IMG/VR virus record: IMGVR_UViG_2859810971_000003
DNA: 14,073 bases
Strand: one strand, 5' to 3'
From: a virus
Lineage: Duplodnaviria; Heunggongvirae; Uroviricota; Caudoviricetes
Shown here: piece after piece, positions 1 through 13,622 of the stretch
How the letters are laid out: the number at the start of each line of letters is the position of its first letter
Position numbering within the stretch: position 1 is the first letter of the stretch
Position numbers and translations under genes: made by a program
Notes under the pieces: model-generated
Seen by the model: the letters and a program-made list of their open reading frames with translations, nothing else
Database searches by the model: none
What the model was told of the DNA's origin: nothing

Positions 1-303
1 ATGAGCAGAAAAACCCAACGTTACTCTAAAGAGTTCAAAGCCGAAGCTGTCAGAACGGTTCTTGAAAATCAACTTTCGATCAGTGAAGGCGCTTCCCGAT
101 TATCTCTTCCTGAAGGCACTTTAGGACAATGGGTTACCGCCGCCAGAAAAGGGCTCGGTACTCCTGGTTCCCGCACGCTGGCTGAACTGGAATCTGAAAT
201 TCTGCAACTGCGTAAGGCGTTAAATGAAGCTCGCCTTGAGCGAGATATATTAAAAAAAGCAACAGCGTATTTTGCACAGGAGTCGCTGAAAAATACGCGT
301 TAA
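1..303 (+). CDS. IS600 transposase OrfA (helix-turn-helix / leucine-zipper protein)
   Basis: 100-aa ORF MSRKTQRYSKEFKAEAV... typical of IS3-family OrfA. An A7G slippery run (about 254..261) precedes the stop. Confidence 0.9.
   Translation: MSRKTQRYSKEFKAEAVRTVLENQLSISEGASRLSLPEGTLGQWVTAARKGLGTPGSRTLAELESEILQLRKALNEARLERDILKKATAYFAQESLKNTR
254..261 (+). other. Programmed -1 ribosomal frameshift site (A-AAA-AAG heptamer) for the OrfAB fusion
   Basis: TTAAAAAAAGC lies in the orfA/orfB overlap, and the -1 frame stays open into orfB. This is the standard IS3-family arrangement. Confidence 0.6.
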
Positions 304-338
304 TCGAACAATGGCGACAACAATTTCCCATTGAAGCG

Positions 339-1155
339 ATGTGTCAGGTATTTGGTGTATCCAGGAGCGGTTATTACAACTGGGTACAGCATGAACCCTC
401 AGACAGAAAACAAAGTGATGAGCGGCTAAAACTGGAGATTAAGGTGGCACATATCCGCACTCGCGAAACATATGGAACCCGGCGGCTCCAGACGGAGCTG
501 GCAGAGAATGGCATCATCGTTGGTCGTGACCGACTGGCACGTCTTCGTAAGGAGCTGAGGCTACGCTGTAAGCAGAAACGCAAGTTCAGAGCGACTACGA
601 ACCCGAACCACAATCTGCCAGTTGCGCCAAATCTGCTGAACCAGACGTTCGCTCCTACAGCACCAAATCAGGTCTGGGTGGCGGACCTGACGTATGTTGC
701 CACACAGGAGGGATGGTTGTACCTCGCTGGCATCAAAGATGTTTATACGTGTGAAATTGTCGGCTACGCCATGGGAGAGCGCATGACAAAAGAGCTGACA
801 GGTAAAGCCCTGTTTATGGCGCTCAGGAGCCAGCGCCCACCTGCCGGGCTAATCCACCACTCTGATCGAGGTTCACAGTACTGCGCATACGATTACCGGG
901 TCATACAGGAGCAGTCTGGTCTGAAAACATCAATGTCGCGTAAAGGTAACTGTTACGACAACGCTCCGATGGAAAGCTTCTGGGAACGCTGAAAAATGAG
1001 AGCCTGAGCCACTATCGTTTTAATAACCGGGATGAAGCCATCTCAGTAATACGGGAATACATTGAGATTTTCTACAATCGTCAGCGTCGTCACTCTCGTC
1101 TGGGGAATATCTCCCGGCAGCCTTCAGGGAAAAATATCATCAGATGGCTGCTTAA
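339..1155 (+). pseudogene. IS600 transposase OrfB (DDE integrase), disrupted in this copy
   Basis: The first 216 aa are identical to the intact 272-aa OrfB of copy 2 (8614..9432). The frame is lost at about 982 (GGG here, GGGG in copy 2) and a second run differs at about 1111 (CCC vs CCCC). Confidence 0.85.
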
Positions 1156-1197
1156 AAAAGAACAAATGGTAGTGTCCGCTATTGCCAGTACACCTCA

Positions 1198-1357
1198 GTC
1201 AGATATGTCAGCAGCCCAAACAGCAGACTCCCAGCACGCCTATTGCCGCCCACTGAGACGGGGAAACCCTGTCCAGCAACTGCAGGAACCAGTAGCCCGT
1301 TCCCACCGCTGACGTGGTGTATGACACACCTGTTGTGATTTTTTCCATCTGGTCCAT
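1198..1357 (-). pseudogene. Class II (S21-like) phage holin, 3' part cut off by IS600 and apparently frameshifted
   Basis: [43 protein letters not shown] resembles the recalled phage 21 holin. The frame breaks at a C3 run (1230..1232), the alternate frame gives [12 protein letters not shown], and the ORF abuts the IS600 end. GGGAGACGGGG forms the ribosome-binding site. Confidence 0.6.
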
Positions 1358-1392
1358 ACCCCGTCTCCCGTTATCCGGAAGCTGACAACAAT

Positions 1393-1421
1393 AAAAAAGC
1401 CACCAGTTAACTACTGATGGC
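1393..1421 (-). terminator. Intrinsic terminator on the minus strand just upstream of the holin gene
   Basis: On the minus-strand RNA there is an 8-bp stem (GCCAUCAG/CUGGUGGC, one G-U pair), a 7-nt loop and a U6 tract. The plus-strand version has a C-A mismatch and no U tract. Confidence 0.5.
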
Positions 1422-10207: not shown

Positions 10208-10262
10208 GCAAGCACCTTAAAATCACCATCATACACTAAATCAGTAAGTTGGCAGCATTACC

Positions 10263-11011
10263 CTGGTTGTAGACTTGTCTCAGCATATAAGTTGCTGGAA
10301 TGATTACGGCGGCTGGTACGACACTGATCATATAAACCTGGTACAAGGCTCAGCTTTCGCAGGCTCCCTACAGTCATATAAAGGATCGCTGTACTGGAAT
10401 AATGTGACCTACCCCTTCCCGTTGACGACAAATACCAACGTATTGGATATTGGTGATAAGACACCGATGCCATTACCGTTAAAACTCTATATTACCCCAG
10501 TTGGGGCGGCCGGTGGAGTTGTCATAAAAGCGGGGAAGTCATTGCCCGTATTCATATGTATAAAATTGCAACATTAGGAAGCGGAAATCCGCGTAATTTT
10601 ACGTGGAATATTATTTCAAATAACAGTGTTGTTATGCCAACAGGCGGCTGCACCGTTGATAGTCGTAATGTCACCGTGGATCTCCCGGACTTTCCTGGAA
10701 GCGCAGAAATACCCCTTGGCGTATATTGCTCAAGCGAACAAAAGCTCTCATTTTATCTTTCGGGTGCCACCACTGACAGTAGCCGACAAGTGTTTGCTAA
10801 CACAGCACCTGATGCAACAAAAGCATCGGGAGTGGGTGTCACTCTAATGCGTAATGGAAAAATACTGGCTACGGGAGAAAATGTCTCCCTGGGGACAGTA
10901 AATAAAAGCAAAGTACCTCTGGGTTTAAGCGCAACCTATGGACAAACAGGAAACAAGGTTTCAGCCGGAACCGTCCAGTCAGTCATTGGTGTCACTTTTA
11001 TCTATGAATAA
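10263..11011 (+). pseudogene. ydeQ: FimH-family fimbrial adhesin gene (ydeQ-like), 5'-truncated by IS1 and frameshifted near 10550..10570
   Basis: The frame is open from the IS1 junction: [14 protein letters not shown]... aligns with FimH NLVVDLSTQIFCHND. The C-terminal pilin domain ...VVMPTGGC...[12 protein letters not shown] matches FimH ...VVVPTGGC...VQSIIGVTFVYQ. The two halves are in different frames. Confidence 0.75.
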
Positions 11012-11083
11012 TTGTGATTTTGACCTTAGTCTATGCGCTCCATTCACGAAAATTGCGCGGATAATTATTTTGTGAAGGCTATT

Positions 11084-11101
11084 ATCCTACACCTGTAAGA
11101 A
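11084..11101 (+). promoter_or_regulatory. EvgA-box-like 18-bp palindrome (ATCCTACA-CC-TGTAAGAA) upstream of ydeP
   Basis: Resembles the recalled EvgA consensus TTCPyTACA-N2-TGTAPuGAA. It lies 244 bp upstream of the ydeP ATG. Confidence 0.45.
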
Positions 11102-11344
11102 AATCCGCGCACAATTGAAGCCAGAGTCTTATTTTTTATATTGAAAAATATGTTAATTTAAACACTATGAGAGATGATGCTTAACTTATCGTATTTAATC
11201 TATTGTTTAACGATAATAGATTAAAAATAGAAAGAGAGTAGTCCCTTACTCTTATATATCCATGTTGGCGATAATCCCTTTGTATGTACTGTGCATCATC
11301 GCTATTACAAATCCTAATAATTCATTTCCACACAGGATAAGTAG

Positions 11345-13622
11345 ATGAAGAAAAAAATTGAATCCTACCAGGGTGCTGCAGGTGGTTGGGGTGCTGTTAA
11401 ATCCGTAGCGAATGCAGTACGTAAGCAGATGGATATACGCCATGATGTTATTGCCATGTTTGACATGAATAAGCCAGAGGGCTTTGACTGTCCGGGTTGT
11501 GCATGGCCAGATCCTAAGCACAGTGCGTCATTCGACATTTGTGAAAACGGCGCAAAAGCAATCGCCTGGGAAGTCACGGATAAGCAGGTAAATGCCTCTT
11601 TCTTTGCTGAGAATACGGTTCAATCATTACTTACCTGGGGAGATCACGAGCTTGAGGCTGCGGGGCGTCTCACTCAGCCTTTGAAATATGATGCCGTCAG
11701 CGACTGTTACAAGCCATTAAGCTGGCAACAAGCTTTCGACGAAATTGGCGCACGCCTTCAAAGCTATAGTGATCCCAATCAGGTTGAATTCTATACTTCG
11801 GGCCGCACTTCTAATGAAGCTGCCTTTCTTTATCAGCTTTTTGCCCGTGAATACGGGAGCAATAACTTTCCCGACTGCTCCAACATGTGCCATGAACCGA
11901 CAAGCGTGGGTTTGGCAGCGAGTATCGGTGTAGGTAAAGGGACCGTGTTGCTGGAAGACTTTGAGAAGTGCGATTTAGTCATTTGCATTGGGCATAACCC
12001 TGGTACAAACCACCCTCGCATGCTGACTTCGTTGCGCGCTTTAGTGAAACGGGGAGCGAAAATGATCGCCATCAATCCTCTACAGGAACGTGGCCTGGAG
12101 CGATTTACCGCACCGCAAAACCCGTTTGAAATGCTGACGAACTCTGAGACTCAGTTGGCCAGTGCCTACTACAACGTGCGCATTGGTGGCGATATGGCAT
12201 TGCTCAAGGGGATGATGCGCCTGTTAATTGAGCGCGATGATGCTGCAAGTGCCGCAGGTCGGCCCTCATTGCTTGATGACGAATTTATTCAAACGCATAC
12301 CGTCGGCTTTGACGAGCTACGCCGTGACGTTCTCAATTCCGAGTGGAAAGATATCGAACGTATTTCTGGACTAAGTCAGACACAAATCGCCGAACTGGCT
12401 GACGCATATGCCGCTGCCGAACGCACCATTATCTGTTACGGAATGGGGATCACTCAGCACGAACATGGTACCCAGAACGTGCAGCAACTGGTCAATTTGC
12501 TGTTGATGAAAGGTAACATTGGCAAGCCTGGTGCGGGTATCTGCCCACTACGTGGTCACTCTAATGTACAGGGCGACCGAACCGTCGGTATCACCGAGAA
12601 ACCGTCTGCAGAGTTTCTGGCTCGCCTGGGTGAGCGCTATGGCTTCCCCCCACCTCATGCACCTGGACATGCTGCAATTGCCAGCATGCAAGCAATATGT
12701 ACGGGGCAGGCTCGAGCATTGATCTGCATGGGGGGCAACTTTGCACTGGCAATGCCAGATCGGGAAGCGAGCGCTGTACCGTTAACGCAATTAGATTTGG
12801 CGGTACACGTAGCCACTAAGCTTAACCGCTCTCATCTGCTGACCGCACGGCATAGCTATATTCTGCCGGTTCTGGGCGTAGCGAGATTGATATGCAAAAA
12901 AGCGGTGCGCAGGCGGTAACCGTTGAGGATTCAATGTCGATGATTCATGCCTCGCGTGGCGTGTTAAAACCCGCCGGTGTAATGCTGAAATCAGAGTGTG
13001 CAGTGGTCGCGGGAATCGCGCAGGCAGCACTACCCAGAGCGTGGTAGCCTGGGAGTATCTGGTGGAAGATTATGATCGCATTCGCAATGACATTGAAGCT
13101 GTGCTGCCAGAGTTCGCCGACTATAACCAGCGCATCCGTCATCCCGGTGGTTTTCACCTGATAAATGCAGCTGCTGAAAGGCGCTGGATGACGCCGTCAG
13201 GTAAGGCCAATTTCATTACCAGCAAAGGGCTGTTAGAAGATCCCTCTTCAGCGTTTAACAGTAAGCTGGTCATGGCGACAGTACGCAGCCACGATCAGTA
13301 CAACACGACGATTTATGGTATGGATGATCGCTATCGAGGGGTATTCGGTCAACGAGATGTGGTCTTTATGAGTGCTAAACAAGCTAAAATTTGCCGTGTA
13401 AAAAACGGCGAAAGAGTTAATCTTATTGCGCTTACGCCAGACGGTAAGCGCAGCTCACGCCGCATGGATAGATTAAAAGTGGTCATTTACCCTATGGCTG
13501 ACCGCTCACTGGTGACCTATTTTCCAGAATCGAATCACATGCTAACACTTGATAACCACGATCCATTAAGTGGCATTCCTGGCTATAAAAGTATTCCGGT
13601 TGAATTAGAACCATCAAATTAA
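11345..13622 (+). pseudogene. ydeP: ydeP (acid-resistance molybdopterin oxidoreductase family), full length but with two 1-nt deletions
   Basis: 524-aa ORF, then a short middle frame, then a 208-aa ORF. The span is 2278 nt, which is 2280 (759 aa plus stop) minus 2. Breaks are at about 12874..12880 and at the C3 run 13033..13035. AGGA ribosome-binding site. Confidence 0.85.

What the first reader, a model, noticed from the sequence alone, without database searches (positions are those of the whole stretch)
1..13622. Nearly all frameshifts are single-base deletions in homopolymer runs
Within the window the two IS600 copies differ at three homopolymer runs, all shorter in copy 1 (G3 vs G4 near 982, C3 vs C4 near 1111, A6 vs A7 near 1155). 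The breaks in the holin (C3 at 1230..1232), the DUF1737-like ORF (about 1725), IS200 tnpA (C4 at 3806..3809) and ydeP (C3 at 13033..13035) have the same form, and ydeP is short by exactly two bases. The ydeQ break (about 10550..10570) is unlocalised. This is either real pseudogenisation typical of Shigella or homopolymer-length sequencing error. It changes whether these genes count as functional.
Basis: partly seen in the sequence, partly recalled or inferred. Interest (0 to 1): 0.6.

Follow-up and report, generated by a model that had tools for sequence, protein, structure and literature searches.

The report
Homopolymer undercalls in a PacBio-only assembly
The ten one-base "frameshifts" in this Shigella window are almost certainly consensus errors of an unpolished PacBio assembly, each dropping one G or C from a short run, so the affected genes (ydeP, IS600 and IS200 transposases, a prophage gene) should not be counted as pseudogenes on this evidence.

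Summary
The window is 100% identical to GenBank CP026810.1, a Shigella flexneri-like chromosome.

Compared with every relative I could fetch, it carries ten private indels. All ten are 1-bp deletions in G/C runs that are 4 or 5 long elsewhere: 982-984, 1113-1115, 1230-1232, 1735-1737, 2606-2608, 2617-2620, 3806-3809, 10532-10535, 12874-12876 and 13033-13035. None of 176 A/T runs of 4 or more is changed.

- **Nearest relatives:** draft assemblies with zero substitutions over 6.7 kb have the longer run at every site they cover.
- **Repair:** adding the ten bases restores proteins that occur exactly on 839 to 1000 or more other contigs. The truncated YdeP and IS200 TnpA exist nowhere else.
- **Recurrence:** the IS600 G4-to-G3 change recurs in five IS600 copies on different haplotypes.
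- **Sister assembly:** CP026842.1 has 1-bp deletions inside essential ispE and infB.
- **Literature:** a published study states that this PacBio Shigella set was never short-read polished and has numerous homopolymer indels.

Verdict: an assembly artefact, not Shigella gene decay. The real decay here comes from IS elements (IS600, IS1, IS200). A6 at 1154-1159 is a genuine variant.

The parts
1..1197 (+). IS600 copy 1. The window starts at the orfA ATG. The orfA/orfB programmed -1 slippery run A7G at 252-259 is intact. The element is inserted into the prophage holin gene.
   Evidence: 99.5% identical to an annotated E. coli IS600. The same insertion is present in CP049606.1, CP026871.1, CP026765.1 and CP026788.1.
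982..984 (.). G3 where all references have G4. It truncates IS600 OrfB to 217 aa. Judged an artefact.
   Evidence: The same loss recurs in five IS600 copies on different haplotypes in three assemblies.
1113..1115 (.). C3 where references have C4, in IS600 orfB. Judged an artefact.
   Evidence: Draft contig L023 shows C4 at this very locus.
1154..1159 (.). A6 against A7 in IS600 copy 2. This is a real copy-specific variant at the orfB stop codon, not part of the artefact set.
   Evidence: A6 is shared by CP049606.1 (L017) and draft L023 at this locus. A7 is found in L011, L052 and L055.
1230..1232 (.). C3 where relatives have C4, inside the IS600-truncated holin remnant (1198-1357, - strand). 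Judged an artefact.
   Evidence: The repaired 59-aa product occurs exactly on 839 contigs; the 49-aa product occurs on 6, three of them indel-riddled long-read assemblies (L039, L041, L042) and two short Logan contigs.
1735..1737 (.). G3 where relatives have G4, in the DUF1737 gene (about 1665-1852, - strand). Judged an artefact.
   Evidence: The repaired 62-aa product is on 1000 or more contigs; the 42-aa product is on 4.
2606..2608 (.). C3 where relatives have C4, non-coding. Judged an artefact.
2617..2620 (.). G4 where relatives have G5, non-coding. Judged an artefact.
3653..4355 (-). IS200 insertion between the prophage tRNA genes and the Q antiterminator gene. The boundary is ambiguous by about 7 bp. 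It is private to this strain and judged a real insertion.
   Evidence: It is absent from L017, L011, L018-L023, L052 and L055, all of which read straight across the site. It is 99.7% identical to E. coli IS200 copies.
3806..3809 (.). C4 where the closest IS200 copies have C5. It changes the last 17 residues of TnpA and lengthens it from 152 to 165 aa. Judged an artefact.
   Evidence: L025 has no mismatch other than indels. The 165-aa product exists at only this one place in the collection.
8571..9494 (-). IS600 copy 2, cut at its 5' end by IS1. It lacks orfA and the slippery site, and its orfB is intact at 272 aa.
9495..10263 (-). IS1, which truncates both IS600 copy 2 and ydeQ.
   Evidence: The same junctions are present in CP049606.1.
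10264..11011 (+). ydeQ remnant. The 5' end was removed by IS1, which is a real disruption.
   Evidence: Aligned to annotated ydeQ.
10532..10535 (.). G4 where references have G5, in the ydeQ remnant. Judged an artefact.
   Evidence: After repair the remnant reads in one frame to the natural stop.
11345..13622 (+). ydeP, the acid-resistance oxidoreductase. It is split into 524, 51 and 186 aa in the record and is judged intact in the organism.
   Evidence: With two bases restored, the 759-aa product is identical to YdeP of CP049606.1 and occurs exactly on 1000 or more contigs named Shigella or S. flexneri. The 524-aa fragment is on one contig only.
12874..12876 (.). G3 where references have G4, in ydeP. 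Judged an artefact.
13033..13035 (.). C3 where references have C4, in ydeP. Judged an artefact.

Best explanation
The ten single-base deletions are consensus errors in a PacBio-only assembly that was never polished with short reads. The record is CP026810.1, which I infer belongs to the CDC set of 59 historical Shigella strains.

In that chemistry the consensus caller tends to undercall short G or C homopolymers by one base. The errors come in local clusters and often hit one gene more than once. The organism itself most probably has G4/C4/G5/C5 at these places.

If so, ydeP, IS600 orfB (copy 1), IS200 tnpA and the DUF1737 gene are intact. The holin and ydeQ are disrupted only by the IS600 and IS1 insertions.

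Shown: the deletions are private to this record, they are confined to G/C runs, and repairing them restores common exact proteins. Inferred: the sequencing platform of this particular accession, and the state of the reads.
For: 1. **Source.** The window is 100% identical to CP026810.1.

2. **Signature.** There are ten private indels, all -1, all in G/C runs that are 4-5 long in references. That is 10 of 60 G/C runs against 0 of 176 A/T runs of 4 or more, p = 6e-7.

3. **Nearest relatives.** Drafts L018, L020 and L023 have 0 substitutions over up to 6.7 kb yet carry the longer run at all 4-5 sites they cover. Complete genome CP049606.1 shares every IS junction except IS200. In 10.5 kb of unique DNA it differs by 2 substitutions but 7 such deletions, plus 2 more in IS600 copy 1. 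CP026871.1, CP026765.1 and CP026788.1 also have the longer runs.

4. **Repair.** Repairing the sites restores exact, common proteins: YdeP 759 aa and DUF1737 62 aa on 1000 or more contigs, holin 59 aa on 839. The frameshifted YdeP-N and IS200 TnpA occur only in this record.

5. **Recurrence.** The same G4-to-G3 loss recurs in five IS600 copies with different substitution haplotypes, in CP026810.1, CP026842.1 and AGRC01000031.1.

6. **Sister assembly.** CP026842.1 carries 1-bp deletions in essential ispE (C5 to C4) and infB, in nusA and the metY tRNA, and three in dacB plus three in its flanks.

7. **Same assembly, elsewhere.** CP026810.1 shows the signature outside the window: cheB C5 to C4 twice, and intergenic G6 to G5 (twice) and C4 to C3.

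8. **Literature.** PMC8795385 says the Kim et al. [quoted passage not shown] The rows of its Supplementary Table 1 that I could read show 29-288 cgMLST allele differences from Illumina genomes of identical strains. PMC8574707 describes systematic PacBio RS II single G/C deletions in 4-6 nt homopolymers, often several per gene and not scaling with run length.
Against: - No reads or same-strain short-read assembly could be examined. The closest relatives lack the IS200 insertion and so are not the same strain.
- That CP026810 belongs to the Kim et al. PacBio set rests on its accession block. CP026832 and CP026840 are cited as members. I did not read it in a record.
- The errors are unevenly spread. 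There are 0 hits among 19 G/C runs in 4356-10263 (p = 0.015). The 13 kb of flanks carry only two hits, both intergenic, and every housekeeping gene there is intact. Purifying selection on real mutations would also produce that picture.
- I could not show a broken essential gene in CP026810.1 itself, only in a sister assembly.
- Three Logan contigs carry the holin or DUF1737 deletion with few other indels, so those two runs may occasionally vary for real.
Confidence: 0.93

Rival explanations
1. The deletions are real, strain-specific frameshift mutations. On this reading they are recent pseudogenisation in a historical Shigella strain, arising by replication slippage or by stationary-phase (Pol IV-type) -1 frameshifting during decades of storage, and tolerated because the targets are dispensable.
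For: - Every hit lies in DNA that could be neutral: IS copies, a prophage remnant, already truncated genes, intergenic DNA, and non-essential ydeP and cheB.
- Housekeeping genes in 13 kb of flanks are all intact.
- The strain does have at least one private real event, the IS200 insertion.
- From general knowledge, -1 deletions in short G/C runs are the known spectrum of stress-induced Lac+ reversion in E. coli.
Against: - Four indels against zero substitutions over 6.7 kb versus the nearest drafts, and 7 against 2 in unique DNA versus CP049606.1. From general knowledge, spontaneous indels are roughly ten-fold rarer than substitutions in E. coli.
- No A/T run of 4-7 changed, and runs of 6 were spared, so there is no dependence on run length.
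- The identical change recurs in independent IS600 copies and in other assemblies.
- A sister assembly from the same accession block has 1-bp deletions in essential infB and ispE, which cannot be real.
- The defect has been published for this data set.
Confidence: 0.04
2. A mixture: most of the ten are artefacts, but one or two are genuine variants of this strain. The holin C-run and the DUF1737 G-run are the likeliest candidates, as both sit in an already dead lysis cassette.
For: - The same holin and DUF1737 products are seen in Logan contigs L043, L044 and L048, which show few other indels.
Against: - All near-identical relatives, including zero-substitution drafts, have the longer runs at these two sites.
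- The two sites are indistinguishable in form from the other eight.
- The sequencing technology behind the Logan runs is unknown.
Confidence: 0.1
3. The runs are phase-variable contingency loci or programmed frameshift sites, so the length differences would be regulatory.
For: IS600 does use a programmed -1 frameshift. Its A7G site at 252-259 is intact, and the E. coli copy is annotated 'programmed frameshift'.
Against: - The affected runs are only 4-5 nt. From general knowledge that is too short for efficient slipped-strand switching.
- They are scattered through unrelated genes and non-coding DNA.
- Two fall in one gene (ydeP).
- Relatives are invariant at all of them.
- None coincides with the IS600 slippery site.
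Confidence: 0.01

Closest known systems
Systematic G/C-homopolymer deletion errors of PacBio RS II consensus assemblies, as described by the ARAMIS study (PMC8574707) and, for the Kim et al. 2018 historical Shigella genomes, by Yassine et al. 2022 (PMC8795385)
   Same: - Single-base deletions of G or C in runs of 4-6.
- Only a minority of runs are affected, with no increase with run length.
- Often several errors fall in one gene.
- Genes are falsely truncated, and the errors are absent from short-read data of identical or near-identical strains.
   Different: Nothing material. I could not inspect the reads or confirm the platform of CP026810.1 from its own record.
Shigella reductive evolution (IS expansion and pseudogene accumulation)
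   Same: The window shows genuine, lineage-shared IS-mediated decay. IS600 sits in the prophage holin, an IS600/IS1 junction joins the Qin-like prophage remnant to ydeQ, IS1 truncates ydeQ, and there is a private IS200 insertion.
   Different: The ten frameshifts are not inherited by any relative. They are not accompanied by substitutions, and they have a purely technical signature.
Nanopore-type homopolymer errors in long-read assemblies
   Same: They produce the same truncated holin and DUF1737 products in unrelated E. coli assemblies (L039, L041, L042, L045).
   Different: Those assemblies lose bases in A/T and G/C runs alike, with 16-37 one-base deletions in 3-7 kb. CP026810.1 is hit only in G/C runs, at about 0.7 per kb in the window.

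Membership tests
PacBio-only consensus homopolymer undercall (assembly artefact) | The changes are 1-bp deletions relative to the true sequence | tested here: met
   All ten are -1 relative to every reference and relative.
PacBio-only consensus homopolymer undercall (assembly artefact) | The changes are confined to short G/C homopolymers (4-6 nt), with no dependence on run length | tested here: met
   7 of 49 runs of 4, 3 of 8 runs of 5 and 0 of 3 runs of 6 were hit. 0 of 176 A/T runs of 4 or more were hit.
PacBio-only consensus homopolymer undercall (assembly artefact) | The changes are absent from independent, short-read-type assemblies of identical or near-identical strains | tested here: met
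   Drafts L018, L020 and L023 have 0 substitutions but the longer runs. They are near-identical strains, not the same strain. That they are short-read assemblies is inferred from contigs ending at IS boundaries.
PacBio-only consensus homopolymer undercall (assembly artefact) | The record was produced by PacBio without short-read polishing | tested here: inconclusive
   CP026832 and CP026840 are cited as Kim et al. PacBio genomes. The set is described as unpolished with numerous homopolymer indels. Membership of CP026810 is inferred from the accession block, and the Kim et al. paper is not held.
PacBio-only consensus homopolymer undercall (assembly artefact) | The same signature hits genes that cannot be broken in a living cell | tested here: inconclusive
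   Met in sister assembly CP026842.1: ispE (C5 to C4), infB and nusA. No essential gene lay in the 53 kb of CP026810.1 I could reach except argS, which is intact.
PacBio-only consensus homopolymer undercall (assembly artefact) | The reads at the sites do not support the shorter run | not testable with these tools
   No access to reads.
Genuine Shigella pseudogenes by frameshift | The mutation is inherited by members of the lineage, or at least reproducible in an independent assembly | tested here: not met
   None of 5 complete and 6 draft relatives carries any of the ten. The YdeP-N and TnpA products are unique to this record.
Genuine Shigella pseudogenes by frameshift | The indel-to-substitution ratio and indel spectrum are compatible with spontaneous mutation | tested here: not met
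   4 indels to 0 substitutions against the nearest drafts, and 7 to 2 in unique DNA against CP049606.1. Only G/C runs are hit.
Phase-variable simple-sequence contingency locus | A long homopolymer (typically 7 or more) in a promoter or 5' coding region, with length polymorphic among close relatives | tested here: not met
   The runs are 4-5 nt, scattered, and invariant in all relatives.
IS3-family programmed -1 ribosomal frameshift | The frame change occurs at the A6G/A7G slippery motif in the orfA-orfB overlap | tested here: not met
   The slippery run is at 252-259 and is intact. The breaks at 982-984 and 1113-1115 lie deep in orfB.

The most novel reading that the evidence does not exclude
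The ten deletions are real and record a mutational process specific to short G/C runs. The candidate would be Pol IV-type stress-induced -1 frameshifting during decades of stab or lyophile storage of a historical Shigella strain, acting with almost no accompanying base substitutions.
Probability: 0.03. Interest if true: 0.5.

Novelty: not a real feature. Interest (0 to 1): 0.08.

Why it matters
The issue is practical rather than biological. Taken at face value, this record turns ydeP (acid resistance), two transposases and a prophage gene into pseudogenes. That would inflate pseudogene counts in a genus where gene decay is itself the subject of study.

Anyone using CP026810.1, or its sister records such as CP026842.1, should polish or mask homopolymer indels first. 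This applies to pseudogene censuses, cgMLST, IS-activity inference and metabolic models.

The IS-mediated disruptions in the window are real and can be used.

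Tried and rejected
- **Fetching the Kim et al. 2018 announcement.** I tried the DOI and PMC5897796 to confirm platform and strain. It is not held.
- **Searching for the accessions.** I searched papers and two papers' supplements for CP026810, GCA_002949455 and CP049606. Nothing was found.
- **Naming the organism from a companion plasmid.** I tried CP026811 in PLSDB. It is absent.
- **Reaching more of CP026810.1.** I wanted to test essential genes in the same assembly, using frameshift-specific or rare IS proteins from the window.
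  - The IS600 217-aa product gave one extra locus, L028, in the che/flh region.
  - The IS200 165-aa product gave only the window itself.
  - The IS1 97-aa product returned other genomes instead.
- **Using L014 as an infB reference.** It is a different species at 87% identity. I replaced it with K-12.
- **Strand bias.** Rejected: 5 G-runs and 5 C-runs are hit on the + strand.
- **CFT073 as the IS200 reference.** It has TCCC at the site, which would suggest a non-homopolymer loss. The closest IS200 copies have C5.
- **Clustering.** Permutation tests for sub-kb clustering were only suggestive (p about 0.08). The empty 4356-10263 stretch gives p = 0.015.

Full report
**What the window is.** The window is 100% identical over all 14,073 bases to GenBank CP026810.1, assembly GCA_002949455.1, a 4.53-Mb chromosome.

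Exact-match look-ups of repaired proteins return names such as 'Protein ydeP ... Shigella flexneri' and 'Lysis protein S [Shigella flexneri]'. The organism is therefore S. flexneri or very close to it.

The layout, is:

| Coordinates | Strand | Feature |
|---|---|---|
| 1-1197 | + | IS600 copy 1, inserted into the holin gene of a Qin-like cryptic prophage |
| 1198-8570 | mixed | Prophage remnant |
| 8571-9494 | - | IS600 copy 2, cut at its 5' end by IS1 |
| 9495-10263 | - | IS1 |
| 10264-11011 | + | ydeQ, 5' end removed by IS1 |
| 11345-13622 | + | ydeP |
| 13870 onwards | + | safA |

The prophage remnant holds the holin remnant, DUF1737, iraM, tRNA-Arg(TCT), tRNA(CAT), an IS200 at about 3653-4355, Q, rusA, DUF968, rem, hokD and relBE.

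**Checking the observation.** A direct alignment of the two IS600 copies shows three 1-bp gaps, all shorter in copy 1, plus three substitutions.

I aligned the window to annotated E. coli references for each segment: Combat13F7 for ydeQ-ydeP-safA, FDAARGOS_944 for IS600, and CFT073 and 1EC213 for the prophage. This located every break.

- ydeP lacks two bases: G3 at 12874-12876 and C3 at 13033-13035.
- The DUF1737 break is G3 at 1735-1737.
- The holin break is C3 at 1230-1232.
- The IS200 tnpA break is C4 at 3806-3809, where the three closest E. coli IS200 copies have C5 and one of them has no mismatch at all.
- Two further non-coding sites have the same form: C3 at 2606-2608 and G4 at 2617-2620.

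**Sorting private changes from inherited ones.** Exact-protein look-ups brought in the same locus from other assemblies.

| Relative | Type | Relationship to the window |
|---|---|---|
| CP049606.1 (L017) | Complete | Shares every IS junction except the IS200 |
| CP026871.1 (L011), CP026765.1 (L052), CP026788.1 (L055) | Complete | More distant |
| L018-L024 | Draft | Contigs end at IS boundaries, as short-read assemblies do |

Four small indels relative to E. coli are shared with these relatives and are therefore real:

- loss of a lone C at 2049;
- C6 at 3468;
- the A-run at 4359;
- A6 at 1154-1159, which is shared with L017 and draft L023.

These real indels are all non-coding or silent and are mixed in type.

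Ten indels are private to the window. All ten are 1-bp deletions, and all sit in G or C runs that are 4 or 5 long in every other sequence.

**Why these are not real mutations.**

1. *Spectrum.* After repair the window has 60 G/C runs of 4 or more. Ten of them are hit: 7 of 49 tetramers, 3 of 8 pentamers and 0 of 3 hexamers. It has 176 A/T runs of 4 or more, including 26 of length 6-7, and none is hit. Fisher p = 6e-7. Slippage mutation should rise steeply with run length and should touch the long A/T runs.

2. *Indel-to-substitution ratio.* Drafts L018, L020 and L023 have no substitution against the window over up to 6.7 kb. They nevertheless differ at all four prophage sites, and L023 also at 1113-1115. 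Against CP049606.1, 10.5 kb of unique DNA shows 2 substitutions and 7 deletions. From general knowledge of E. coli mutation-accumulation work, indels are roughly ten-fold rarer than substitutions.

3. *Repair restores common proteins exactly*.

   | Gene | Repaired product | Contigs carrying the repaired product exactly | Frameshifted product |
   |---|---|---|---|
   | ydeP | 759 aa, identical to YdeP of CP049606.1 | 1000 or more | 524-aa fragment, this record only |
   | DUF1737 | 62 aa | 1000 or more | 42 aa, 4 contigs |
   | Holin remnant | 59 aa | 839 | 49 aa, 6 contigs |
   | IS600 orfB (copy 1) | Identical to copy 2 | not looked up | 217 aa, 5 places |
   | IS200 tnpA | Not translated here; expected to match the 152-aa TnpA of L025, since L025 has no substitution across the element | not looked up | 165 aa, this one place only |

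4. *Recurrence.* The 217-aa IS600 OrfB made by the G4-to-G3 loss is found at five IS600 copies: two in CP026810.1, two in CP026842.1 and one in AGRC01000031.1. These copies carry different substitution haplotypes and different companion changes. That marks the run as a technical hot spot rather than a single inherited lesion. The frameshifted holin and DUF1737 products turn up elsewhere mainly in long-read assemblies riddled with 16-37 one-base deletions per 3-7 kb.

5. *Sister assembly.* CP026842.1 has 1-bp deletions in genes a cell cannot lose. ispE is split by a C5-to-C4 loss. infB is split by a single-base loss, nusA is shortened, and the metY tRNA has G5 to G4. dacB carries three C-run deletions within about 400 bp, with three more in the intergenic DNA on either side.

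6. *Same assembly, outside the window.* CP026810.1 has cheB C5 to C4 twice and a G6 to G5, an intergenic G6 to G5 and an intergenic C4 to C3.

**Literature.** Yassine et al. 2022 (PMC8795385) used the closed PacBio genomes of Kim et al. 2018 for all Shigella serotypes. [quoted passage not shown] The rows of their Supplementary Table 1 that I could read list 29 to 288 allele differences between PacBio and Illumina genomes of identical strains.

CP026832 and CP026840 are cited as members of that set. CP026810, CP026842, CP026871, CP026765 and CP026788 fall in the same block, so I infer they are members too. I could not read this in a record.

The ARAMIS paper (PMC8574707) reports that PacBio RS II assemblies carry systematic single G or C deletions in homopolymers of four to six bases. 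Only a small fraction of runs is affected. Longer runs are not hit more often, and a single gene is often hit more than once. That matches this window point for point.

**What does not fit neatly.** The hits are uneven.

- None falls among 19 G/C runs between 4356 and 10263 (p = 0.015).
- The 13 kb flanking the window have only two hits, both intergenic, and all housekeeping genes there are intact.
- Selection against real frameshifts would also give this picture.

However, the sister assembly shows the same sub-kb clustering (six deletions within about 1.7 kb in and around dacB) alongside broken essential genes. I therefore read the clustering as local consensus quality.

Three Logan contigs carry the holin or DUF1737 deletion with few other indels. 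I leave about a 10% chance that one or two of the ten are genuine.

I had no access to reads, no short-read assembly of the same strain, and no essential gene within the 53 kb of CP026810.1 that I could reach.

**Conclusion.** The interpretation resolves to homopolymer-length consensus error in an unpolished PacBio assembly, with confidence about 0.93.

The genuine gene decay in this window comes from IS elements:

- IS600 in the holin;
- the IS600/IS1 junction that joins the prophage remnant to ydeQ;
- IS1 truncating ydeQ;
- a strain-private IS200 insertion.

The defect is known and has been published for this data set, so interest is low. The practical message is to polish or mask before counting pseudogenes.

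Noticed in passing
window 3653-4355: This IS200 insertion, between the prophage tRNA genes and the Q antiterminator gene, is present only in this strain. Five complete and six draft relatives read straight across the site. It is probably a real, recent transposition.
   Followed up: partly
window 9495-10263: The IS1 at the ydeQ junction differs from the IS1 at the same locus in CP049606.1 by 3 substitutions (9705, 9971, 10007). Unique DNA differs by only 2 in 10.5 kb. IS600 copy 1 likewise differs at 105 and 752. This suggests gene conversion between IS copies, or read mis-assignment during polishing.
   Followed up: no
window 10264 versus 10582: CP026871.1 and CP026765.1 have IS1 abutting ydeQ at a different position (window-equivalent 10582) from this strain, CP049606.1 and CP026788.1 (10264). 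That implies independent IS1 events, or an IS1-mediated deletion, at the same gene.
   Followed up: no
L031 about 17751; L032 about 420, 1665, 3775 and 17807-19449 (CP026842.1): The sister assembly has 1-bp deletions in essential ispE and infB, in nusA and in the metY initiator tRNA. Six more C-run deletions lie on one strand around dacB, three of them inside the gene. That record is unsafe for gene-content work.
   Followed up: yes
L011 (CP026871.1), equivalent to window 4553-4558: CP026871.1 has T5 where the window and all other relatives have T6. This shortens its Q antiterminator to 253 aa, against 273 aa elsewhere. It is probably an error in that assembly, and it lies in an A/T run.
   Followed up: partly
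window 4356-10263: None of the 19 G/C runs of 4 or more in this 5.9-kb stretch is shortened (p = 0.015). The errors cluster elsewhere: three within 250 bp at 982-1232, two 12 bp apart at 2608/2620, and two 160 bp apart in ydeP. The cause, whether local coverage or polishing, is unknown.
   Followed up: partly
window 3357-3433 and 3535-3610 (- strand): The prophage carries two tRNA genes: tRNA-Arg(TCT) and a CAT-anticodon tRNA. ARAGORN calls the second Met, but the homologous gene is annotated tRNA-Ile in CFT073 and 1EC213. Both appear intact.
   Followed up: no
L028 about 5450, 6196, 6948 and 19239 (CP026810.1 flhA/flhB/cheA): Frameshifts in the flagellar and chemotaxis genes include single-base losses outside homopolymers, measured against K-12 or, for cheA, E. 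coli AHM8C212RI. These may be genuine Shigella motility-gene decay. I did not compare them with close relatives.
   Followed up: no
L043, L044, L048 (Logan contigs of SRR23044204, ERR10497708, SRR24475014): These contigs carry the same holin C4-to-C3 or DUF1737 G4-to-G3 loss with few other indels. The sequencing technology is unknown, so it is unclear whether they are recurrent errors or real variants in other E. coli.
   Followed up: partly
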